From assembly GCF_054482525.1 (NCBI RefSeq), contig NZ_CM137006.1: 64,000 bases of DNA. One strand, written 5' to 3'. Position numbers and translations under genes: made by a program. Position 1 is the first letter of the stretch; every line of letters begins with the position of its first letter. The notes under the pieces are model-generated. The model was given only the letters and a program-made list of their open reading frames with translations, ran no database searches and was not told the origin of the DNA. Below are positions 5,322-60,751 of this stretch, one piece after another.

Positions 5322-9002
<3,681 letters not shown>

Positions 9003-9028
<26 letters not shown>

Positions 9029-17490: not shown

Positions 17491-19017
17491 TTAGAAATAA
17501 ATCTCACCATCAACCATATATTTGAGAGCACTTATCGCCTGCTGGGCGGATATTACTTTCATTAAAGGATAGTGTTTAAAAACAATGCCATTCATAAAAT
17601 AGATATCACAGGTTTTATTATCCGTATTAATTATGATTTTTTCGAATGTTTTATAGGCAAGTGTACGGCATAACTCTCGTCCATTTTTACTGGTTAAGTC
17701 AATAGCATAAAAATCACTGAATGAATTTACACCTTTACTCTTCAAAGTTTTCAATGATACCGAAGCCCTTCGTAATTCCTTATCTAATAGTCTTATTTTC
17801 TCTGCTATAGCGGTAACTTCAGGCGCGACAGACAATGCAACGATTAAATTATTAATTTTCATCTGAAGCTCAATAATTTTTAACTCTAAAGTTTCATTAG
17901 CATCTTTCTTGTTTTCAACTGGTTGAATTTTGCTACAATTAAAAAGCAATTCATTAATGATATTATAATCAACCAAATCTCTTTTTATTGATGGCCTGTC
18001 ACATCGATGTAATCTTCTCATCGGACAAACATAATAGCCATGCAAACTTCCAGATACCGCATGAACAATCATGGTATTACCACAAGCCTCACACTTCATA
18101 ACTGTTCGAAGTAGATTTATTAGCATAGGATTCTTGCTACTATTGCTAATACCAAAAGGTGCCAACCGAATTTCCTGTACAGCGTAAAACAAATCATCTG
18201 ATATGACTCTGGGATAATAGCCAGCGATTTCACTTATCCCTTTCCCTCTTGCACGATATGAAGGTACGCATATACCTATCAGAGCTTTATTCGCTAATAA
18301 TTTTTCAATTACAGAAGGTCCCCATGCACTTTCTTTTCCTGAGAAATTCTTTACAGCATGATCATTTAAATACTTGGCTATTGCATTCAATGAGCGCCTT
18401 TCCATCCTGAGTTTAAAAATTAGCTCAATAGTTTTCACCCTGTCGGGGTCTGGAACAAAAGCCGTTCTTTTGTCATCTAAGGAGAGCCATCTCGGACAAG
18501 ACGCCGTCATAATCGTACCTGATTCCAGTGCATCCTGCCGTTTTTTCTTCCATGATAATTTAACCCGACTTGACTTTATCTCGCTTTCTTCATTTGCCCT
18601 TTGTGCTATAAGTATGGCTTTTATTAATGAATATGGCTCATTCAAAGAGTCAATATTATAGACTGTATTGTCGCAAAGAGTTATAACATCAATACCGTGA
18701 TTCAAAATCAATTTCAGACGTTCAATCGCTTCACCGACTTTTTCTCTTGAAAGTCTGTCCAGACTTTCAACTAACAATGTAGTTCCTGGCAATATATAAC
18801 CATGCTCTATAGCATCTAAAAATTCCGAAAAAGCTCCTGATTGTGCATGCTTTCCTTTGAATGCACTTAATCCTAAATCTTCATATGTTATGGTATCAAG
18901 ATAATAATCACTATTTACCTTTAACCATTCAGCAATAAGTCTTCTCTGTCGGTTTAATGAGTCGCCAGACATCTGACCTGGTGATGAAAATCGCATATAT
19001 GCTATGGCTTTTTTCAT
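17491..19017 (-). CDS. Large serine recombinase (ybcK-like), 508 aa
   Basis: N-terminal resolvase/invertase catalytic motif (AIAYMRFSSPGQ...SLNRQ), central recombinase domain, C-terminal Cys-rich zinc-ribbon (CEACGNTM...CPMRRLHRC). Confidence 0.85.
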   Translation of the reverse strand: MKKAIAYMRFSSPGQMSGDSLNRQRRLIAEWLKVNSDYYLDTITYEDLGLSAFKGKHAQSGAFSEFLDAIEHGYILPGTTLLVESLDRLSREKVGEAIERLKLILNHGIDVITLCDNTVYNIDSLNEPYSLIKAILIAQRANEESEIKSSRVKLSWKKKRQDALESGTIMTASCPRWLSLDDKRTAFVPDPDRVKTIELIFKLRMERRSLNAIAKYLNDHAVKNFSGKESAWGPSVIEKLLANKALIGICVPSYRARGKGISEIAGYYPRVISDDLFYAVQEIRLAPFGISNSSKNPMLINLLRTVMKCEACGNTMIVHAVSGSLHGYYVCPMRRLHRCDRPSIKRDLVDYNIINELLFNCSKIQPVENKKDANETLELKIIELQMKINNLIVALSVAPEVTAIAEKIRLLDKELRRASVSLKTLKSKGVNSFSDFYAIDLTSKNGRELCRTLAYKTFEKIIINTDNKTCDIYFMNGIVFKHYPLMKVISAQQAISALKYMVDGEIYF

Positions 19018-28092: not shown

Positions 28093-28329
28093 ATGTCTCG
28101 ACTAATCACTTTACAGGACTGGGCTAAAGAAGAATTTGGGGACTTAGCACCAAGTGAGCGAGTTCTGAAAAAATACGCGCAAGGGAAAATGATGGCCCCA
28201 CCCGCTATAAAAGTTGGTCGCTACTGGATGATTGACCGAAATTCCCGTTTTGTAGGAACGCTTGCAGAACCGCAACTCCCAATAAACGCAAACCCAAAAC
28301 TCCAACGGATAATCGCTGATGGCTGCTAG
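28093..28329 (+). CDS. xis: Excisionase (Xis-like)
   Basis: 78 aa; N-terminus MSRLITLQDW... parallels lambda Xis MYLTLQEW...; AGGAGG RBS; 3' end overlaps int start. Confidence 0.7.
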   Translation: MSRLITLQDWAKEEFGDLAPSERVLKKYAQGKMMAPPAIKVGRYWMIDRNSRFVGTLAEPQLPINANPKLQRIIADGC

Positions 28330-29461
28330 ACCCCGATCTCACAAAATCTCTATACCCAATTTATATTGCAAATTAGATAAGCGAACCGGAAAGGTATATT
28401 GGCAATACAAACATCCACTATCCGGTCGTTTTCATAGCTTAGGAACTGATGAGAATGAAGCAAAACAAGTTGCTACTGAAGCAAATACCATTATTGCTGA
28501 ACAACGTACCCGACAAATATTAAGCGTCAATGAGCGTCTAGAAAGAATGAAAGGCAGGCGCTCAGACATTACGGTGACAGAATGGCTTGATAAATATATT
28601 TCTATCCAGGAGGACAGGCTGCAACATAATGAACTAAAACCCAACTCCTATCGGCAAAAAGGTAAACCCATTCGTCTTTTCCGTGAGCATTGTGGAATGC
28701 AACACCTCAAGGATATTACCGCACTTGATATTGCCGAAATAATTGATGCTGTAAAGGCTGAAGGTCATAACAGGATGGCGCAAGTCGTGAGAATGGTGTT
28801 GATCGACGTCTTCAAAGAAGCACAACACGCAGGACATGTTCCGCCAGGATTTAACCCAGCGCAGGCAACAAAACAACCGCGAAATCGAGTAAACCGCCAA
28901 AGATTATCACTGCCCGAATGGCAGGCAATATTTGAAAGCATAAGCAGACGGCAGCCCTATTTAAAATGCGGCATGCTACTTGCTCTTGTTACTGGACAAC
29001 GTTTAGGCGATATCTGCAATTTGAAATTCTCTGATATATGGGACGACATGTTGCACATTACTCAGGAAAAAACCGGTTCAAAACTTGCTATTCCGCTTAG
29101 CCTGAAATGCGATGCTCTGAATATTACCCTTCGTGAAGTTATATCTCAGTGCAGGGATGCTGTTGTTAGTAAATATCTGGTCCATTACCGTCACACTACC
29201 TCTCAAGCAAACAGAGGAGACCAGGTTTCTGCAAATACTCTTACAACGGCTTTTAAAAAGGCCAGGGAAAAATGTGGCATAAAATGGGAGCCAGGAACTG
29301 CGCCCACATTTCATGAGCAGCGATCTCTGTCAGAACGGTTATATCGGGAACAGGGTCTGGATACGCAAAAGTTGTTAGGTCATAAATCCAGAAAAATGAC
29401 CGACCGATACAATGATGATCGTGGTAAAGACTGGATTATCGTAGATATCAAAACAGCATAG
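28319..29461 (+). CDS. int: Tyrosine integrase, lambda Int family
   Basis: 380 aa; motifs shared with lambda Int (RSHK near N-terminus, ...VTGQRLGDICNLKFSDI..., ...TFHEQRSLSERLY..., ...LLGHKS...RY.DDRG..W); adjacent to the attachment junction. Confidence 0.9.
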   Translation: MAARPRSHKISIPNLYCKLDKRTGKVYWQYKHPLSGRFHSLGTDENEAKQVATEANTIIAEQRTRQILSVNERLERMKGRRSDITVTEWLDKYISIQEDRLQHNELKPNSYRQKGKPIRLFREHCGMQHLKDITALDIAEIIDAVKAEGHNRMAQVVRMVLIDVFKEAQHAGHVPPGFNPAQATKQPRNRVNRQRLSLPEWQAIFESISRRQPYLKCGMLLALVTGQRLGDICNLKFSDIWDDMLHITQEKTGSKLAIPLSLKCDALNITLREVISQCRDAVVSKYLVHYRHTTSQANRGDQVSANTLTTAFKKAREKCGIKWEPGTAPTFHEQRSLSERLYREQGLDTQKLLGHKSRKMTDRYNDDRGKDWIIVDIKTA

Positions 29462-29574: not shown

Positions 29575-30825
29575 TTACATATTCTTGATGATCGCGTCAC
29601 CAAACTCTGAACATTTCAGCAGTTTAGCGCCTTCCATCAGACGTTCGAAGTCATAGGTTACAGTCTTGGCGTTGATCGCGCCTTCCATACCTTTAACAAT
29701 CAGGTCTGCGGCTTCAGTCCAGCCCATATGGCGCAGCATCATCTCAGCGGAGAGAATAATAGAGCCTGGGTTTACTTTGTCCTGACCGGCATATTTCGGC
29801 GCAGTACCGTGGGTGGCTTCAAACAGGGCGCATTCGTCACCGATGTTTGCGCCTGGGGCGATACCGATACCGCCGACCTGTGCAGCCAGAGCGTCAGAAA
29901 TGTAGTCACCGTTCAGGTTCATACAGGCGATAACATCATATTCAGCCGGACGCAGCAGAATCTGTTGCAGGAATGCATCAGCAATCACGTCTTTAATGAC
30001 GATCTCTTTGCCGGTATTCGGATTTTTAACTTTCAGCCACGGGCCGCCGTCGATCAGTTCACCGCCAAACTCTTCACGCGCCAGCTGGTAGCCCCAGTCT
30101 TTAAACGCGCCTTCGGTGAATTTCATGATGTTGCCTTTGTGAACCAGGGTCACAGAGTCACGATCGTTAGCAATTGCGTATTCGATCGCTGCACGAACCA
30201 GACGTTTGGTGCCTTCTTCAGAACACGGCTTAATACCGATGCCGCAATGTTCCGGGAAGCGAATTTTCTTCACACCCATCTCTTCACGCAGGAATTTAAT
30301 CACTTTCTCAGCGTCGGCAGAGTCTGCTTTCCATTCGATACCCGCATAAATGTCTTCCGAGTTTTCACGGAAGATAACCATATCGGTCAGTTCAGGGTGT
30401 TTAACCGGGCTTGGGGTGCCCTGGTAGTAACGTACCGGACGCAGGCAGATATAGAGATCCAGCTCCTGGCGCAGGGCAACGTTCAGAGAGCGAATACCGC
30501 CACCAACCGGAGTGGTCAGCGGGCCTTTGATGGCAACGCGATATTCACGAATCAGATCAAGGGTTTCAGCAGGTAGCCAGACATCCTGACCATAAACCTG
30601 TGTGGATTTTTCACCGGTGTAAATTTCCATCCAGGAGATTTTACGCTCGCCTTTATAGGCTTTCTCGACTGCAGCGTCGACCACTTTCAGCATGGCTGGG
30701 GTTACATCTACACCGATTCCATCACCTTCAATGTAAGGGATAATCGGATTTTCAGGAACGTTGAGTTTGCCGTTTTGCAGGGTGATCTTCTTGCCTTGTG
30801 CCGGAACAACTACTTTACTTTCCAT
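29575..30825 (-). CDS. icd: Isocitrate dehydrogenase (NADP), 3' end contributed by the prophage
   Basis: 416 aa, [38 protein letters not shown]..., ends ...FGDAIIKNM. Confidence 0.95.
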
Positions 30826-37708: not shown

Positions 37709-38830
37709 ATGGAATACCAACTCACTCTTAACTGGCCCGATTTTCTTGAACGTCACTGGCAGAAACGTCCGGTGGTGTTAAAACGTGGCTTTAATAATTT
37801 TATTGACCCGATCTCTCCAGACGAGTTGGCGGGTCTGGCGATGGAAAGCGAAGTCGACAGTCGACTGGTCAGTCATCAGGATGGCAAATGGCAGGTCAGC
37901 CACGGTCCATTCGAAAGCTACGATCATCTCGGTGAAACTAACTGGTCATTGTTAGTGCAAGCAGTGAACCACTGGCATGAGCCGACCGCCGCGCTGATGC
38001 GACCGTTCCGTGAACTACCGGACTGGCGTATTGATGATCTGATGATCTCTTTTTCCGTACCTGGCGGCGGCGTCGGCCCGCATCTCGATCAGTACGACGT
38101 GTTTATCATTCAGGGTACCGGACGTCGTCGCTGGCGAGTGGGTGAAAAGCTGCAAATGAAACAGCACTGCCCACATCCGGATCTGTTACAGGTCGATCCG
38201 TTCGAAGCCATCATCGATGAAGAGCTGGAGCCTGGTGATATTCTTTATATTCCGCCAGGATTCCCGCATGAAGGCTACGCGCTGGAAAATGCGATGAACT
38301 ATTCCGTGGGTTTTCGCGCGCCAAATACGCGGGAACTGATTAGCGGATTTGCCGATTATGTGCTGCAACGTGAACTGGGCGGCAACTACTACAGCGATCC
38401 TGATGTTCCACCTCGCGCTCATCCTGCGGATGTTCTGCCGCAAGAGATGGATAAACTGCGTGAGATGATGCTCGAATTGATCAACCAGCCGGAACACTTT
38501 AAGCAATGGTTTGGGGAGTTTATATCCCAGTCACGTCATGAACTGGATATCGCGCCGCCAGAGCCGCCTTATCAGCCGGATGAAATCTACGATGCGCTGA
38601 AACAAGGTGAAGTGCTGGTGCGTCTGGGTGGTCTGCGCGTATTGCGCATTGGCGACGACGTGTATGCCAATGGTGAGAAGATCGATTCCCCACACCGTCC
38701 GGCACTGGATGCGCTCGCCAGCAACATTGCGCTGACCGCGGAGAATTTTGGTGATGCGCTGGAAGATCCGTCATTTCTCGCGATGCTTGCGGCACTAGTC
38801 AATAGCGGGTATTGGTTCTTCGAAGGGTAA
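37709..38830 (+). CDS. roxA: Ribosomal protein uL16 arginine hydroxylase RoxA (YcfD), JmjC/cupin
   Basis: 373-aa product from MEYQLTLNWPDFLERHWQKRPVVLKRGF...; trimmed to Met4. Confidence 0.85.
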   Translation: MEYQLTLNWPDFLERHWQKRPVVLKRGFNNFIDPISPDELAGLAMESEVDSRLVSHQDGKWQVSHGPFESYDHLGETNWSLLVQAVNHWHEPTAALMRPFRELPDWRIDDLMISFSVPGGGVGPHLDQYDVFIIQGTGRRRWRVGEKLQMKQHCPHPDLLQVDPFEAIIDEELEPGDILYIPPGFPHEGYALENAMNYSVGFRAPNTRELISGFADYVLQRELGGNYYSDPDVPPRAHPADVLPQEMDKLREMMLELINQPEHFKQWFGEFISQSRHELDIAPPEPPYQPDEIYDALKQGEVLVRLGGLRVLRIGDDVYANGEKIDSPHRPALDALASNIALTAENFGDALEDPSFLAMLAALVNSGYWFFEG

Positions 38831-38845
38831 GTTTGAAGTTAAGCC

Positions 38846-38870
38846 GGATGCGGCATCACATGCCGCATCC
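38846..38870. terminator. Hairpin between convergent roxA and pepT
   Basis: GGATGCGGCA-TCACA-TGCCGCATCC followed by CTTTTCGCTT. Confidence 0.45.
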
Positions 38871-38878
38871 CTTTTCGC

Positions 38879-40105
38879 TTACTTCCGTTGCGCCGTTAAC
38901 TCGGCAATACGGACGATCACCTGCACCGCTTTTTCCATACCTTCCAGAGTCACAAACTCATGCTTACCATGATAGTTGTAACCGCCAGTGAACAGGTTCG
39001 GGCACGGTAATCCCATAAACGACAACTGCGCGCCGTCGGTACCGCCGCGGATCGGTTTCAGTTCCGGTTCAATATCGCAGTCACGCATCGCCTGCTGGGC
39101 GATATCGAGAATATGCGGATGCTCAACCACTTTCTCGCGCATATTGTAGTAACTGTCTTCAATCACCAATTCAATGTAGCAATCAGGATGTAACCCTTTG
39201 CCCACTTTTTTGGCGATCTCCATCATTTTACGTTTACGCGCTTCAAACTGTTTACGGTCGAAATCACGGATGATGTAGTGCATATCGGCCCGTTCAACGG
39301 TGCCTTTCATGCTCGCCAGGTGATAGAAACCTTCATAGCCTTCTGTCATTTCCGGGCTTTCATCCGCCGGAACTTCCGCATGAATACGTGCCGCCAGCGA
39401 CAGCGCATTTACCATCACTCCTTTCGCCGTGCCCGGGTGAACATTGTTACCGACAATTTTGATATTGACCGACGCGGCGTTGAAGTTTTCAAACTCCAGT
39501 TCGCCTACGCCACCACCATCAACGGTGTAAGCCCAGCTGGCATCGAAGGCGTCAACATCAAAATGTTTCGCCCCTTTGCCCACTTCTTCATCCGGGGTAA
39601 AGGCGACGCGAATATCACCATGCGGAATGTTTTTTTGTTGCAATACCGCCAGCGCGGTCATGATTTCTGCAATACCTGCTTTATCATCGGCACCTAACAA
39701 GGTTTTACCATCGGTGGTAATCAGCGTCTGACCCAGTAGCTGATGCAGCACCGGGAACATAACCGGTGATAAAACTTCATCGCCGATACCCAGCGCAATA
39801 TCGCCACCGCGATAGTTTTCAACAATTTGCGGATTCACATTTTTGCCGCTGCAATCCGGTGAGGTATCCACATGAGAAATAAAGCCAATCGCCGGGATAT
39901 CGCCAGGGACGTTAGCCGGTAACGTCGCCATCAAAGTGCCCTTCTCACTTAAGGTCACATTGATAAGCCCCATCTCTTCGAGCTGCTCTTTCAGCAGATG
40001 CAATAACTTCCATTGGCCTTCCGTGCTGGGAACCTGTCTCACCCCTGCTTTTGATTGGGTATCCAGAGACACGTAGTTCAAAAATCGCTCAAGTAGTTTA
40101 TCCAT
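38879..40105 (-). CDS. pepT: Peptidase T (tripeptide aminopeptidase)
   Basis: 408-aa product from [31 protein letters not shown]...; trimmed to Met15. Confidence 0.92.
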
Positions 40106-44172: not shown

Positions 44173-44205
44173 AAGCGGGCGGTGGTATTACCGCCCGTTT
44201 TTTAT
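44173..44205 (+). terminator. Intrinsic terminator of the potABCD operon
   Basis: GCGGGCGG-TGGTATTA-CCGCCCG followed by TTTTTTATTT. Confidence 0.75.
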
Positions 44206-44223
44206 TTAGCAAGGATGTGGCTA

Positions 44224-44685
44224 ATGAGTCAGGACAGTAGAGTTTTCTTTCGTATATTCCTCGGTATCGGTCTGGTACTGATCCTCATTTCTGTTGTTGT
44301 CTTTTATAACCAGTTCACCTATAGCAAAGACGCGATTCATACTGAAGGCGTCATTGTTGATACCGTCTGGCACTCCAGTCATTCTCATCGCACGGGTAAA
44401 AATGGTTCGTGGTATCCCGTCGTTGCCTTTCGACCGACGCCTGATTACACGCTAATTTTCAATTCGAGTATCGGCAGCGATTTTTATGAAGACAGCGAAG
44501 GCGATAAAGTTAATGTTTATTATTCTCCAGGGCATCCTGAAAAGGCTGAGATAAATAACCCGTGGGTTAATTTTTTTAAATGGGGGTTTATCGGCATTAT
44601 GGGCGTTATTTTTATCGCCGTCGGTTTATTAATCAGTATGCCCTCCTCTAAAAAGTCACGCAGGAAACGGAAGTCCCGTCCATGA
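44224..44685 (+). CDS. ymfA: Inner-membrane protein YmfA
   Basis: 153-aa product from [28 protein letters not shown]...; trimmed to Met15. Confidence 0.8.
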
Positions 44686-45467
44686 AAAAAATCATAATAC
44701 TGCTCAGTTTACTGATACTGCTGCCTCTGACAGCAACCAGTAAGCCCTTAATCCCAATAATGAAGACACTTTTTACGGATGTTACAGGTACTGTACCGGA
44801 TGCTGAGGAGATTGCGCAGAAAGCGGAGCTTTTTCGTCAACAAACCGGGATTGCGCCGTTTATCGTGGTTGTACCTGGCGTTAATGAAGCAAGCTTCAGG
44901 CAAAATGGCAAAGCGATGCTGGCGCATGCGTCATCTTCATTGAGTGATGTAAAAGGCAGCGTCCTGTTACTTTTTACCACCCGCGAGCCACGGTTAATTA
45001 TGATAACCAACGGCCAGGTTGAAAGCGGTCTGGACGATAAACATCTCGGCCTTCTGGTAGAAAATCACACTCAGGCTTATTTACATGCGGACCTCTGGTA
45101 TCAGGGAATCAATAATGCATTGGCTGTTTTACAAGCACAGATATTAAAACAACCGACGCCGCCACTGACATATTATCCGCATCCCGGACAACAGCAGGAG
45201 AATGATCCTCCCGGCAGTACCACGATATTAGGTCTTTTTGCCTGGGCAGTTGCATTCATCGTCTTTACTGCATTTTTTTACTACACGACGCGCCTTAATT
45301 ATGCATTAAAGTTTGCAGTGGCGATGACTATTGCCAATATGGGTTATCAGGCTTTATGTTTGTACATCGATAATAGCTTTGCGATTACCAGAATATCGCC
45401 GCTCTGGGCAGGGCTGATTGGTGTCTGTACGTTTATTGCCGCGTTGTTATTGACGAGTAAACGGTAA
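44682..45467 (+). CDS. ycfZ: Inner-membrane protein YcfZ
   Basis: 261 aa, N-terminal signal/TM and C-terminal TM helices; synteny between ymfA and cobB. Confidence 0.8.
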
Positions 45468-45495
45468 AAGAGGCAGTAAAGTGTGCGTTTATTAT

Positions 45496-45592
45496 GCCGG
45501 ATGCGGCGCGAACGCCTTATCTGGCCCACAAAACCCGCAAATTCAATTAATTGCGTCCCCTTGTAGGCCTGATAAGCGTAGCGCATCAGGCA
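45496..45592. repeat. REP (repetitive extragenic palindrome) elements
   Basis: GCCGGATGCGGCGCGAACGCCTTATCTGGCC and GTAGGCCTGATAAGCGTAGCGCATCAGGCA in the ycfZ-cobB intergenic region. Confidence 0.7.
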
Positions 45593-45604
45593 ATGCTTCC
45601 TGCT

Positions 45605-46426
45605 TTATAAGCCCTTCAGCAACTTTTCAACAAACTCTGGCACCACCTGGCTTGCCGGGCCGTAATATTTCTCGGCAAATTCATTACCGACCTGGCTTGG
45701 TTCAAGATTCAGTTCCACGGTGTGTGCGCCATGCAGTTTCGCTTCGTGAACAAACCCAGCCGCCGGATAAACATGCCCTGATGTACCAATGGCAATGAAA
45801 ATATCGGCCATTGACAACGCCATATAAATTTCATCCATGCCGAGTGGCATTTCGCCAAACCAAACGACGTGCGGGCGCAAGGGTGCCGGGAACTGGCAAC
45901 AATGGCATTTATCTTCTGGCGTAACGTCTCCGGTCCAGTCGAGAACCTGACCACTTTGCGAACAGCGAACTTTCAGCAGTTCCCCATGCATATGAATGAC
46001 ATTGGTATTACCTGCGCGTTCATGCAGGTTGTCGATATTCTGCGTCACCAGCAAAAAGCGATCGCCGAGGGCGTCTTGCAGTTTAGCCAGCGCAAGATGC
46101 GCGGCGTTAGGCTGAATTTCTGGCTGCTGTAGCTGTCGACGACGGGCGTTATAAAACGCTTGCACCAGTTCAGGATCGCGATCGAAACCTTCCGGCGTTG
46201 CCACATCTTCAACCCGATGTTCTTCCCACAGGCCATCTGCGGCGCGAAAGGTACGAATACCTGATTCCGCAGAAATCCCTGCCCCTGTCAGTACGAGTAC
46301 TCTTGGTTTTTCCATTGCTTCCGGCACCACTTTATCTCTGAAAAAAATACGCTGACGCAAACGCTCGCGCAGACGGCGTTTATTTTTACGAAAACGACTT
46401 AACCGATGACCCCGACGCGACAGCAT
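45605..46426 (-). CDS. cobB: NAD-dependent protein deacylase CobB (sirtuin), long isoform
   Basis: 273 aa with [14 protein letters not shown] and zinc ribbon; basic N-terminal extension present. Confidence 0.9.
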
Positions 46427-58474: not shown

Positions 58475-58563
<89 letters not shown>

Positions 58564-58573
58564 TACAAGCCGA

Positions 58574-59878
58574 TTAATGCAACTTCAAACGTGGACGGAT
58601 AACGCGGTTAATACTCCCCACCAGCATCATTAATCCGGTTTTAAAGTAACCATGCAGCGCAATCTGATGCATTCTGTATAGCGAGATGTATACAAAGCGC
58701 GCAATTCGTCCTTCAATCATCATTGAGCCGCGCGTCAGGTTACCCATCAGGCTACCGACGGTGGAGAAGTTCGACAGCGATACCAGCGAACCGTGATCTT
58801 TATACTGATAATTTTTCAGCGGCTTACCGTTCATCTGCGCCAGAATGTTGTTCATTGCGCAAGTTGCCATCTGGTGTGCAGCCTGAGCGCGCGGCGGAAC
58901 AAAGCCCCCTTCCGGACGCGGGCATGACGCGCAATCGCCAATAGCGTAAATGTCTGGATCGCGGGTGGTTTGCAGCGTCGGTTCCACCACCAGCTGGTTG
59001 ATACGGTTGGTTTCAAGACCACCAATATCTTTCAGGAAGTCTGGCGCTTTGATCCCGGCTGCCCACACCATCAGATCAGCCTCAATATATTCGCCATCTT
59101 TAGTGTGCAGGCCGCCTTCATCAGCACTGGTGACCATGGTTTGCGTCAGCACGCGAACGCCAAGTTTCGTTAGCTCGTTGTGGGCCGCAGCAGAGATACG
59201 TGGCGGTAATGCAGGCAAAATACGTTCGCCCGCTTCTACCAGCGTTACGTTCAGGGCTTCGTTGGTCAGACCTTTATAACCGTAGCTGTGCAGTTGCTTG
59301 ACCGCGTTGTGCAATTCAGCGGAGAGTTCTACACCCGTCGCGCCGCCGCCGACTATCGCAATGTTCACTTTGCCATTCGCGCCCAGGTTGGCGGAGTATT
59401 TCAGGAACAGATTCAGCATCTCCTGGTGGAAGCGACGCGCCTGGTGCGGGTTATCGAGGAAAATGCAGTTCTCTTTGACACCTGGCGTATTGAAATCGTT
59501 AGAGGTGCTACCCAGCGCCATTACCAGGGTGTCATAGGCGATTTTACGTTCCGGAACCAGCAATTCACCTTTTTCGTCGCGCAGTTCTGCAATAGTGATT
59601 GTTTTCGCTTCACGATCAATATCAATGACGGAACCCAGCTGGAACTGGAAACCATGATTACGCGCATGGGCCAGATAGCTCAACGCATCGACGCCTTCAT
59701 CAAGCGAGCCAGTCGCCACTTCGTGCAGCAGCGGTTTCCACAGGTGGCTGTGGTTACGATCGACCAGCGTGATTTTGGCTTTTTTCTTGCGTCCCAGCTT
59801 ATGCCCCAGCTGTGTTGCCATTTCCAGCCCACCAGCACCGCCGCCGACAATCACAATTTTTTTCAATGGCGTAGTCAA
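58574..59878 (-). CDS. ndh: NADH dehydrogenase II (Ndh)
   Basis: 434-aa product beginning (M)[28 protein letters not shown] (FAD-binding GxGxxG); start codon reads TTG here. Confidence 0.92.
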
Positions 59879-60208
59879 CGTGACCCCCTTAAATTTATTA
59901 ACCAATTGTTAATTAATGGTTATTAACATAGCTCTTAATTAACAACAGGTTACAGCAATGAAAATGTTCTTCGCTATTGAGAATAACATGAATGGTGCAT
60001 TGGTCATACCAAAATTGATGTTAATCAAGTTTTGTTGCTGAAAAGATAGGCGACTTTACCGGGCGAGATCAAAAAACAGAGTTTGTTGTTTATTATTTGA
60101 GCGAATTTATGAGAGTGGTATAGCGTGAGGGGTGTATAGAGGACGTTTGGTAGGCCTGATAAAATGCGCATCAGGTACCGGCAAGGTTACCTGATGCGAC
60201 GAGGGCAT

Positions 60209-60751
60209 TTACCCGAGGGTTTTGAACGCTTTAATGCGCTGTAAATGCGGGGAGATATTCTTGAATTTGTGCGTCTGCTCTTCGTCCCAGACAATCTCGT
60301 AATAATGATGCAGCTCTTCAGATGTCCGCTGGCTGTTAAGCGCTTCATCATTACGCGACAAAATCACCAAACAACGATCGCGATTCTTTTCGCGGAAGTT
60401 GGTCACACACTTAGTGGCAATATCGGCATACTCTTCCGGGCGATCAATCTTGCCTTCCATGTTCTCATAAGGGAACAAATTAGGGTTGAAGATCACCTGG
60501 CGGATGTCGCAAAGAAAACCAATCCGTTCCGCCCAGTATCCGCCCAAGCCAACGCCGCAAATTAGCGGACGCTCGTCAACGTTCAGTTGCAACATTTTGT
60601 CCACTTCTTTAAGCAGATGCTGCATATCATGTTTCGGATGCCGCGTACTGTAGCTTATCAAGCGTACATCCGGGTCAATAAACTGCAATTGTAAGACTTT
60701 CTCGTGGTTACCCGGACTGTTAGAGTCAAAACCGTGTAAATAGATAATCAT
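60209..60751 (-). CDS. ycfP: UPF0227 esterase-fold protein YcfP
   Basis: 180-aa product from [24 protein letters not shown]...; trimmed to Met20. Confidence 0.85.

What the first reader, a model, noticed from the sequence alone, without database searches (positions are those of the whole stretch)
45496..45592. REP element clusters in host intergenic regions
Typical REP palindromes (GCCGGATGCGGCG..., GTAGGCCTGATAAGCG...CATCAGGC) occur between ycfZ and cobB, again between ycfJ and ndh (58475-58562), and near the ycfP 3' end (about 60150-60215). They are ordinary E. coli features, noted so they are not mistaken for other repeats.
Basis: established knowledge. Interest (0 to 1): 0.1.

Follow-up and report, generated by a model that had tools for sequence, protein, structure and literature searches.

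The report
Ordinary E. coli REP/BIME repeats
The three flagged spots are ordinary copies of the short palindromic REP repeats, grouped into BIME clusters, that occur between genes throughout the E. coli chromosome; they are real but already well known.

Summary
The window is E. coli chromosome (100% identical to strain PCN033 and others). It holds five full REP units and one partial unit, in three intergenic clusters, and none elsewhere.

- Site 1 (45496-45591, between ycfZ and cobB): a Y REP, a 33-nt L-type linker (core GCAAATTCAATTAATTGC, one base off the IHF core consensus), and an inverted Z2 REP.
- Site 2 (58475-58561, downstream of ndh, upstream of ycfJ): a Z1 REP, a 16-nt linker, and an inverted Y REP. 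This Y has lost GTAG but keeps its stem through a compensatory C:G to G:C change.
- Site 3 (60150-60201, just after ycfP): a degenerate inverted Z2-like unit and only the 13-nt head of a Z1 unit.

Pattern matches exceed 100 shuffles in every test (0 expected). The same units recur 21-33 times each in 300 kb of unrelated MG1655 sequence, at classical BIME loci. All three clusters are polymorphic among 5,426 E. coli genomes; for example, the window's site 3 allele lacks a 69-nt Y-containing segment and occurs in only 262 genomes.

Each cluster begins 10-13 nt after the stop codon of cobB, ndh or ycfP. Likely roles, inferred and not shown here, are mRNA 3'-end hairpins, possible translation damping, IHF binding at site 1, and RayT substrates. 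Novelty: already known. Interest is low.

The parts
45496..45529 (+). Site 1, Y-type REP unit: GCCGGATGCGGCGCGAACGCCTTATCTGGCCCAC. The foot tetranucleotide is CCAC instead of CTAC.
   Evidence: (32/32-nt blast stretch at 93.8%, E 6e-9). It differs at 4 of 34 positions from the Y consensus of 20 MG1655 copies. It keeps the conserved G.T and C x T stem mismatches.
45530..45562 (.). Site 1, L-type linker of 33 nt. The core GCAAATTCAATTAATTGC lies at 45537-45554. ATTCAATTAATTG (45541-45553) is one base off the IHF core WATCAANNNNTTR.
   Evidence: The same core (GCAAATTCAATAAATTGC) sits between Y and inverted Z1 at MG1655 phr-dtpD, and between Y and inverted Z2 at ubiA-plsB. PMC3333891 says the BIME-1 L linker is conserved and often carries an IHF site. 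The strict IHF pattern does not match here exactly.
45563..45591 (-). Site 1, Z2-type REP unit. It reads GCCTGATGCGCTACGCTTATCAGGCCTAC on the - strand, has an intact GTAG on the + strand, and starts 13 nt after the cobB stop codon (45605-45607).
   Evidence: (31/31, E 3e-13). It differs at 1 of 29 positions from the sampled Z2 copies. It is the only part of this BIME kept in O157:H7 EC4115.
58475..58511 (+). Site 2, Z1-type REP unit: GCCTGATGCGACGCTTAACGCGTCTTATCAGGCCTAC, with an intact CTAC.
   Evidence: It is 37/37 identical to three Z1 copies in the MG1655 gltP-yjcO BIME array. The K-12 allele has a 17-nt deletion inside this unit.
58512..58527 (.). Site 2, 16-nt tail-to-tail linker (CGCTCGTACCATTTGT). 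It is unique to this locus.
   Evidence: no hit elsewhere at E<0.01; comparable 14-15-nt linkers at yabI-thiQ and malE-malF.
58528..58561 (-). Site 2, Y-type REP unit. It reads GGCGGATGCGGCGTAAACGCCTTATCCGCCCTGG on the - strand. The foot is CTGG instead of CTAC. Stem pair 2:29 is G:C instead of C:G. The stem starts 12 nt after the ndh stop codon (58574-58576).
   Evidence: 0 mismatches in the core; pair 2:29 is CG in 6, UA in 3, GC in 1.
60150..60176 (-). Site 3, degenerate Z2-like REP unit (GTAGGCCTGATAAAATGCGCATCAGGT on the + strand) with an intact GTAG.
   Evidence: It finds no copy elsewhere at E<0.01 as a whole unit. It looks like a fusion of two Z2 halves after loss of 69 nt present in MG1655 and SCU-204.
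60189..60201 (+). Site 3, head of a Z1-like unit only (ACCTGATGCGACG). Together with 60167-60177 it forms an inverted repeat, CGCATCAGGTA / TACCTGATGCG. It lies 10 nt from the ycfP stop codon (60209-60211).
   Evidence: 12/12 to the Z1 head; hairpin in the minimum-free-energy fold on both strands.

Best explanation
These are REP (repetitive extragenic palindromic) units of the E. coli Y, Z1 and Z2 types, arranged as three BIME-like clusters in the core chromosome. They are non-coding, non-autonomous repeats. In E. coli they are recognised as single-stranded hairpins, cut and recombined by the REP-associated tyrosine transposase RayT (TnpA-REP), which is encoded elsewhere in the genome.

Shown here: identity, arrangement, copy-family membership, hairpin potential, population polymorphism, and distances to stop codons.

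Inferred from published work on the family:
(a) Each cluster is transcribed as the 3' untranslated end of the upstream - strand gene (cobB, ndh, ycfP; also ycfZ on the + strand at site 1). There it forms stable hairpins that block 3'-to-5' exonucleases.
(b) The first hairpin starts only 10-13 nt after each stop codon, so it could also stall terminating ribosomes and lower expression.
(c) The L linker at site 1 is an IHF-binding site of the BIME-1 (RIB/RIP) kind.
(d) The Z units, with GTAG intact, remain RayT substrates, whereas the two Y units with altered GTAG probably do not. Recombination between units explains the indel alleles.
For: Sequence and statistics:
- Pattern matches exceed all shuffles.
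- The window's own units, used as queries, find 21-33 copies each in 300 kb of unrelated MG1655 DNA. The hits fall at known BIME loci: araD-araA, rayT flanks, sdhB-sucA, sucB-sucC, tldD-yhdP, malE-malF, lamB-malM, gltP-yjcO.
- One site 2 unit is 37/37 identical to gltP-yjcO copies.

Structure:
- The Y stem is 89.9% paired, against 33-47% when the partners are slid. It has the invariant G.T and C x T mismatches and one covarying pair.
- RNA folds have z-scores of -3.3 to -6.0 on both strands.

Arrangement and context:
- Inverse pairs with linkers fit the BIME definitions in PMC3333891. The L-linker core is shared with two MG1655 BIMEs.
- All units are extragenic. No intrinsic terminator lies at any site. 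No RayT gene is in the window.
- Gaps from stop codon to REP are 13, 12 and 10 nt. PMC12306157 summarises Liang et al. 2015 as finding that REPs fewer than 16 nt from a stop codon reduce translation.

Polymorphism typical of BIMEs.
Against: - The RefSeq MG1655 record served by the tool carries no REP features. They are absent even at the yaaX-yaaA interval, where from memory earlier versions of the record listed a REP. No database annotation could therefore be used as confirmation.
- The strict IHF core consensus is not matched exactly at site 1; it is one mismatch off.
- Site 1 pairs L with Z2, not Z1, so it is not a textbook BIME-1.
- Both Y units lack the GTAG that PMC3333891 shows is needed for TnpA-REP binding.
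- Site 3 is too degenerate to find other copies by blast.
- No transcript, IHF, gyrase or RayT data were available, so every functional statement is inference.
Confidence: 0.95

Rival explanations
1. The hairpins are Rho-independent (intrinsic) transcription terminators of cobB/ycfZ, ndh and ycfP, not members of a repeat family.
For: They are G+C-rich hairpins just downstream of stop codons, and at site 1 they lie between convergent genes. A true terminator-like hairpin with a REP-like head exists nearby at 38843-38870.
Against: No T-tract follows any of the REP stems, and the terminator scan finds none at the three sites. The same sequences recur dozens of times at unrelated loci, which terminators of individual genes would not do. 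REPs may still pause or partly terminate transcription, so this overlaps with the main explanation rather than replacing it.
Confidence: 0.03
2. The matches are chance palindromes or locus-specific inverted repeats with no relation to the REP family.
For: Short 9-13-nt matches to REP consensus are scattered all over the window at chance level. GCCKGATGCG at up to 1 mismatch occurs 34 times.
Against: Full-length patterns occur 2 and 3 times against 0.00 expected in 100 shuffles. Blast E-values to the consensus are 3e-13 to 9e-8. There are 21-33 copies in unrelated MG1655 DNA, including a 37/37 identity.
Confidence: 0.01
3. The clusters are ends or remnants of another mobile element (a miniature inverted-repeat transposable element, an IS200/IS605 end, or a prophage attachment-site scar), or they encode a small RNA.
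For: REPs resemble the subterminal hairpins of IS200/IS605 (PMC3333891). The window carries a prophage at about 1-28.3 kb. Indels occur at all three sites.
Against: There is no transposase or RayT homologue in the window. No REP unit lies in or at the border of the prophage. Rfam finds no RNA family anywhere in the window at gathering threshold. The units align base for base with Y, Z1 and Z2 copies.
Confidence: 0.01

Closest known systems
E. coli REP units of types Y, Z1 and Z2 (palindromic units; Bachellier et al. nomenclature, as summarised in PMC3333891)
   Same: They are 29-37-nt imperfect palindromes and extragenic. Heads are GCCKGATGCG and tails CTTATCMGGCCTAC. The conserved stem mismatch is kept in the Y units. 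They are highly repeated across the genome.
   Different: The site 1 Y unit has CCAC and the site 2 Y unit has CTGG in place of CTAC. The site 2 Y unit has a G:C for C:G swap in the stem. The site 3 units are degenerate or truncated.
BIME-1 (also called RIB or RIP, the IHF-binding form: y + L linker + z1, single copy)
   Same: Site 1 is a single-copy, tail-to-tail pair joined by a 33-nt linker. The linker core GCAAATTCAATTAATTGC matches the linker of the MG1655 phr-dtpD BIME-1 (GCAAATTCAATAAATTGC).
   Different: The partner of Y is Z2, not Z1, so by the strict definition it is a chimera (an 'atypical BIME'). MG1655 ubiA-plsB has the same Y-L-Z2 layout. IHF binding was not tested, and the core consensus is one base off.
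BIME-2 and atypical BIMEs (y + z2 with short linkers, tandemly amplified, copy number variable between strains, gyrase targets)
   Same: Site 3 in MG1655 and SCU-204 is inverted Z2 - Y - partial Z2 with short linkers, and its unit number differs between strains. Site 2 is Z1 - short linker - inverted Y, like malE-malF and yabI-thiQ.
   Different: There is no tandem amplification at any of the three sites in the window. The window's site 3 has lost its Y unit, which is the unit type reported as the preferred gyrase cleavage target (PMC6379681).
Translation-attenuating REPs (Liang, Rudd and Deutscher 2015, as summarised in PMC12306157)
   Same: The first hairpin starts 13, 12 and 10 nt after the cobB, ndh and ycfP stop codons. 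All are within the under-16-nt limit.
   Different: No expression data exist for these genes here. The primary paper and its gene list could not be read.

Membership tests
REP (E. coli Y/Z1/Z2) | 30-40-nt imperfect palindrome able to form a stem-loop | tested here: met
   Folds (z-scores -3.3 to -6.0). The Y stem has 13 pairs at 89.9% paired, against 33-47% for slid controls.
REP (E. coli Y/Z1/Z2) | Sequence match to the Y, Z1 or Z2 consensus | tested here: met
   The consensus was rebuilt from 20 Y, 33 Z1 and 3 Z2 copies in unrelated MG1655 DNA. The window's Y units differ at 4 of 34 positions. The Z1 stems are identical, with differences only in the loop. The site 1 Z2 differs at 1 of 29. 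The site 3 unit is clearly weaker.
REP (E. coli Y/Z1/Z2) | Conserved GTAG/CTAC tetranucleotide at the foot of the palindrome | tested here: inconclusive
   Intact in the three Z units (45563-45566, 58508-58511, 60150-60153). Altered in both Y units (CCAC at 45526-45529; CCAG on the + strand at 58528-58531). Some MG1655 copies also deviate (CTTC, GCC).
REP (E. coli Y/Z1/Z2) | Conserved non-complementary bases in the stem (needed for TnpA-REP binding according to PMC3333891) | tested here: met
   Pair 9:22 is unpaired (C x T) and pair 8:23 is G.T in all 13 distinct Y sequences, including both window copies.
REP (E. coli Y/Z1/Z2) | Extragenic location | tested here: met
   All units lie between annotated genes or ORFs. 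The ORFs overlapping site 1 (45347-45586 -, 45481-45798 +) are mechanical calls with no annotated counterpart.
REP (E. coli Y/Z1/Z2) | High copy number dispersed over the genome | tested here: met
   21-33 blast hits per unit in 300 kb of MG1655. The 321-nt query around site 1 finds a median of 17 places per genome across 5,425 genomes.
BIME (generic) | Two or more REPs in alternating orientation separated by linkers | tested here: met
   Site 1 is Y(+)/Z2(-). Site 2 is Z1(+)/Y(-). Site 3 is Z2-like(-)/partial Z1(+).
BIME-1 | Composition y + z1 | tested here: not met
   Site 1 is y + z2. Site 2 is y + z1 but lacks L.
BIME-1 | Long conserved L linker | tested here: met
   Met for site 1 only. 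It shares an 18-nt core, with one difference, with the phr-dtpD and ubiA-plsB linkers.
BIME-1 | IHF binding at the L linker | not testable with these tools
   ATTCAATTAATTG is one mismatch from WATCAANNNNTTR. There is no exact match at the site. EMSA or ChIP is needed.
BIME-2 | y + z2 with short S linker in tandem copies; gyrase cleavage | tested here: not met
   No tandem repetition at any site in the window. Gyrase binding is not testable here.
REPtron / RAYT association | rayT (tnpA-REP) gene flanked by BIMEs | tested here: not met
   tblastn of MG1655 RayT against the window gives nothing better than E = 1.3. These are dispersed copies acted on in trans.

The most novel reading that the evidence does not exclude
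All three clusters place a stable hairpin 10-13 nt after a stop codon (cobB, ndh, ycfP). Their strain-to-strain indels are the 69-nt loss at site 3 (262 of 5,426 genomes), the 17-nt loss in K-12 at site 2, and the loss of Y + L in O157:H7 at site 1. These could act as natural expression variants that tune NADH dehydrogenase II, CobB deacylase or YcfP levels through REP-dependent ribosome stalling and mRNA stability. The Y-L-Z2 chimera at site 1 might be an unrecognised IHF-binding subclass of BIME.
Probability: 0.15. Interest if true: 0.25.

Novelty: already known. Interest (0 to 1): 0.06.

Why it matters
Its main use is bookkeeping. Labelling these palindromes as REP/BIME units stops them being mistaken for terminators, small-RNA genes, att sites or new repeats in the rest of the scan. 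They also mark the part of the window after about 28.3 kb as core E. coli chromosome, since the prophage part has none. A minor point of interest is that all three loci are polymorphic among E. coli strains and lie within 13 nt of a stop codon. That makes them convenient natural test cases for the published idea that REPs modulate translation and mRNA decay.

Tried and rejected
- Rfam scan of the whole window at gathering thresholds: no family.
- MG1655 RefSeq annotation: I looked for REP repeat_region features and found none in this copy, even at the yaaX-yaaA interval where I recalled one. Annotation could not be used.
- Terminator and promoter scans at the three sites: nothing relevant.
- Exact IHF core consensus: no match at site 1.
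- Primary paper on REPs near stop codons (Liang et al. 2015): not held by DOI or PMC id. An earlier search for it also failed.
- Supplements of PMC12306157 and PMC3333891: no usable per-gene REP lists.
- Literature search linking REPs to cobB, ndh or ycfP: only irrelevant papers.
- Other exact GCCKGATGCG hits in the window (20886, 21554, 38843): the first two lie inside ORFs with no palindrome partner. The third is a terminator-like hairpin without a REP tail. All three were rejected as REPs.
- Linker-only search of 5,426 genomes in 'distant' mode: a median of only 3 places per genome. A 46-nt query is too insensitive to count L linkers, so the L assignment rests on the two MG1655 copies aligned by eye.
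- My first blast script failed because the loci are bundled in one file. It was rerun.

Full report
**1. The observation**

- Site 1. GCCGGATGCGGCGCGAACGCCTTATCTGGCCCAC occupies 45496-45529. GTAGGCCTGATAAGCGTAGCGCATCAGGC occupies 45563-45591. A 33-nt spacer separates them.
- Site 2. GCCTGATGCGACGCTTAACGCGTCTTATCAGGCCTAC occupies 58475-58511. CCAGGGCGGATAAGGCGTTTACGCCGCATCCGCC occupies 58528-58561.
- Site 3. GTAGGCCTGATAAAATGCGCATCAGGT occupies 60150-60176. After an 11-12-nt spacer comes ACCTGATGCGACG at 60189-60201.

**2. Where the window comes from**

The window is E. coli chromosome. A 701-nt query around site 1 is 100% identical to PCN033 and many other strains, and it lies over genes annotated ycfZ and cobB. 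The equivalent searches name ndh and ycfP. The gene order is that of MG1655 at about 1.16-1.18 Mb, in reverse orientation.

**3. More than chance**

- The Y core pattern GGATGCGGCGNNNNCGCCTTATCC (up to 2 mismatches) occurs twice, against 0.00 expected in 100 dinucleotide-preserving shuffles.
- CCTGATGCG-N(3-18)-TTATCAGGCCTAC occurs three times, against 0.00 expected.
- The REP tail CTTATCMGGCCTAC (up to 2 mismatches) occurs five times, against 0.42 expected, and four of the five are in the three sites.
- Blast of remembered consensus sequences gives E-values of 3e-13 to 9e-8 for the five full units. Everywhere else it gives only 9-13-nt chance-level matches.

The window therefore holds five full REP units and one partial unit. 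All lie in the host part. There are none in the prophage that fills roughly 1-28.3 kb.

The copy of the MG1655 RefSeq record available here carries no REP features. I therefore fetched six unrelated 50-kb stretches of MG1655 and used the window's own units as blast queries.

- Each full unit found 21-33 copies. They fall at loci known from the literature as BIME sites: araD-araA, both flanks of rayT, sdhB-sucA, sucB-sucC, tldD-yhdP, malE-malF, lamB-malM, ubiA-plsB, gltP-yjcO and yjdN-yjdM.
- The site 2 Z1 unit is 37/37 identical to three gltP-yjcO copies.
- I rebuilt consensus sequences from 20 Y, 33 Z1 and 3 Z2 reference copies: GCCGGATGCGGCGTAAACGCCTTATCCGGCCTAC, GCCTGATGCGACGC-TGGCGCGTCTTATCAGGCCTAC and GCCTGATGCGCTGCGCTTATCAGGCCTAC.
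- Against these, the window's Y units differ at 4 of 34 positions. Its Z1 differs only in the loop. Its site 1 Z2 differs at one loop base. The site 3 unit is distinctly degenerate and, as a whole unit, finds no copy by blast.

On an alignment of the 13 distinct Y sequences, the 13-pair stem is 89.9% paired, against 33-47% when the partners are slid. Pair 2:29 covaries (C:G, U:A, G:C). G8.T23 and the C9 x T22 mismatch are invariant, including in both window copies. PMC3333891 reports that this stem mismatch and the GTAG tetranucleotide are both needed for TnpA-REP binding and cleavage.

GTAG/CTAC is intact in the three Z units. It is altered in both Y units: CCAC at site 1 and CTGG at site 2.

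**5. Anatomy of each cluster**

*Site 1* is Y(+) - L linker - Z2(-), tail to tail, between the convergent genes ycfZ and cobB. Its linker core is GCAAATTCAATTAATTGC. This matches GCAAATTCAATAAATTGC in the Y-L-Z1 element at MG1655 phr-dtpD and in a Y-L-Z2 element at ubiA-plsB.

PMC3333891 defines three classes:
- BIME-1: z1 + y with a conserved long linker L that often carries an IHF site.
- BIME-2: z2 + y with short linkers, in tandem copies.
- Atypical BIMEs: chimeras of the two.

Site 1 is therefore L-bearing and single-copy like BIME-1, but chimeric in composition. The IHF core consensus WATCAANNNNTTR is missed by one base (ATTCAATTAATTG; one search finds no exact match there). IHF binding is a reasoned prediction, not a result.

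*Site 2* is Z1(+) - 16 nt - Y(-), like the malE-malF and yabI-thiQ pairs. It lies downstream of ndh and upstream of ycfJ.

*Site 3* is a head-to-head remnant. An inverted Z2-like unit and the first 13 nt of a Z1-like unit together form an 11-bp inverted repeat.

**6. Polymorphism**

All three loci vary among strains, as the literature says BIMEs do.

- Site 3. MG1655 and SCU-204 carry 69 extra nucleotides containing a Y unit, bounded by direct GCGCATCAGG repeats. The window's short allele is found in only 262 of 5,426 genomes. It is probably a derived deletion between the two Z2 halves.
- Site 2. K-12-type genomes have a 17-nt deletion inside Z1 and many substitutions. The intact allele of the window is the commoner form, at roughly 70% of the evenly sampled ranking.
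- Site 1. About 4,830 genomes keep the whole region. O157:H7 EC4115 lacks ymfA-ycfZ together with the Y unit and linker, and keeps only the Z2 unit next to cobB. Strain E600003 lacks ymfA-ycfZ but keeps a diverged full Y-L-Z2.

**7. How it most likely works**

*Shown here.*
- The units are strong hairpins on either strand: -40.7 to -50.4 kcal/mol for sites 1 and 2, with z-scores of -3.6 to -6.0.
- No T-tract terminator is present at any site.
- No RayT homologue is in the window.
- The first stem starts 13, 12 and 10 nt after the stop codons of cobB, ndh and ycfP, and 28 nt after ycfZ.

*Inferred from established knowledge of the family.*
- As 3'-UTR hairpins they protect upstream mRNA from 3' exonucleases.
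[quoted passage not shown] This is Liang et al. 2015 as summarised in PMC12306157; the primary paper could not be read.
- The L linker probably recruits IHF.
- As single-stranded DNA, the GTAG-bearing Z units are substrates for RayT acting in trans. Recombination between units generates the observed indels.
- Gyrase targeting, reported mainly for Y units in BIME-2 (PMC6379681), is unlikely to be prominent here.

**8. Rivals**

- Intrinsic terminators: no T-tracts, and the sequences are repeated genome-wide.
- Chance palindromes: refuted by shuffles and copy counts.
- Remnants of other mobile elements, or small-RNA genes: no transposase, no Rfam hit, and base-for-base alignment with REP types.

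None of these competes seriously with the main explanation.

**9. Verdict**

The finding is real, correctly interpreted, and ordinary. These are REP/BIME elements of a family described since the 1980s, at loci where other E. coli strains also carry them. Novelty: already known. Interest is about 0.06.

The only mildly interesting points are the Y-L-Z2 chimera, the GTAG-less Y units whose stems are maintained by compensation, the strain polymorphisms, and the uniform 10-13-nt spacing from stop codons.

Noticed in passing
window 38843-38870: A perfect hairpin, GGATGCGGCAT-CAC-ATGCCGCATCC, followed by TTTT lies between roxA/ycfD (stop at 38830) and the convergent pepT (stop at 38879). Its 5' arm GCCGGATGCGGC is identical to the head of a Y REP, but it has no REP tail or GTAG. 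It looks like a bidirectional intrinsic terminator that could be mistaken for a REP.
   Followed up: partly
window 1-29461: A prophage lies next to the 3' end of icd (29575-30825, - strand). It has a lambda-type integrase at 28319-29461 and a gpA-type large terminase at 7103-9028 (-). It also has a large serine recombinase (Resolvase + Recombinase + Zn ribbon) at 17491-19017 (-) in its interior. No REP unit occurs in this part of the window.
   Followed up: partly
window 44182-45562; L010 2396-2550; L011 536-748: ymfA-ycfZ is an insertion/deletion polymorphism in E. coli. O157:H7 EC4115 goes from potD straight to the Z2 REP and cobB; ymfA after its first codons, ycfZ, the Y REP and the L linker are all missing. 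Strain E600003 joins the ymfA start codon to the last codons of ycfZ and keeps the whole BIME.
   Followed up: partly
window 60163-60166 versus L001 (MG1655) and L009 (SCU-204): The window lacks a 69-nt segment carrying a Y REP, flanked by direct GCGCATCAGG repeats. The short allele is present in 262 of 5,426 complete E. coli genomes.
   Followed up: yes
window 58475-58561 versus L001 7390-7600: The K-12 MG1655 allele of the ndh-ycfJ BIME has a 17-nt deletion inside the Z1 unit and about 20 substitutions, so it is a decaying copy. The window's intact allele is the commoner one.
   Followed up: yes
NC_000913.3 (L001, L002): The RefSeq MG1655 record as served by the tool lists no REP repeat_region features. 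They are absent even at the yaaX-yaaA interval, where from memory older versions of the record listed one. Absence of annotation there says nothing about absence of REPs.
   Followed up: no
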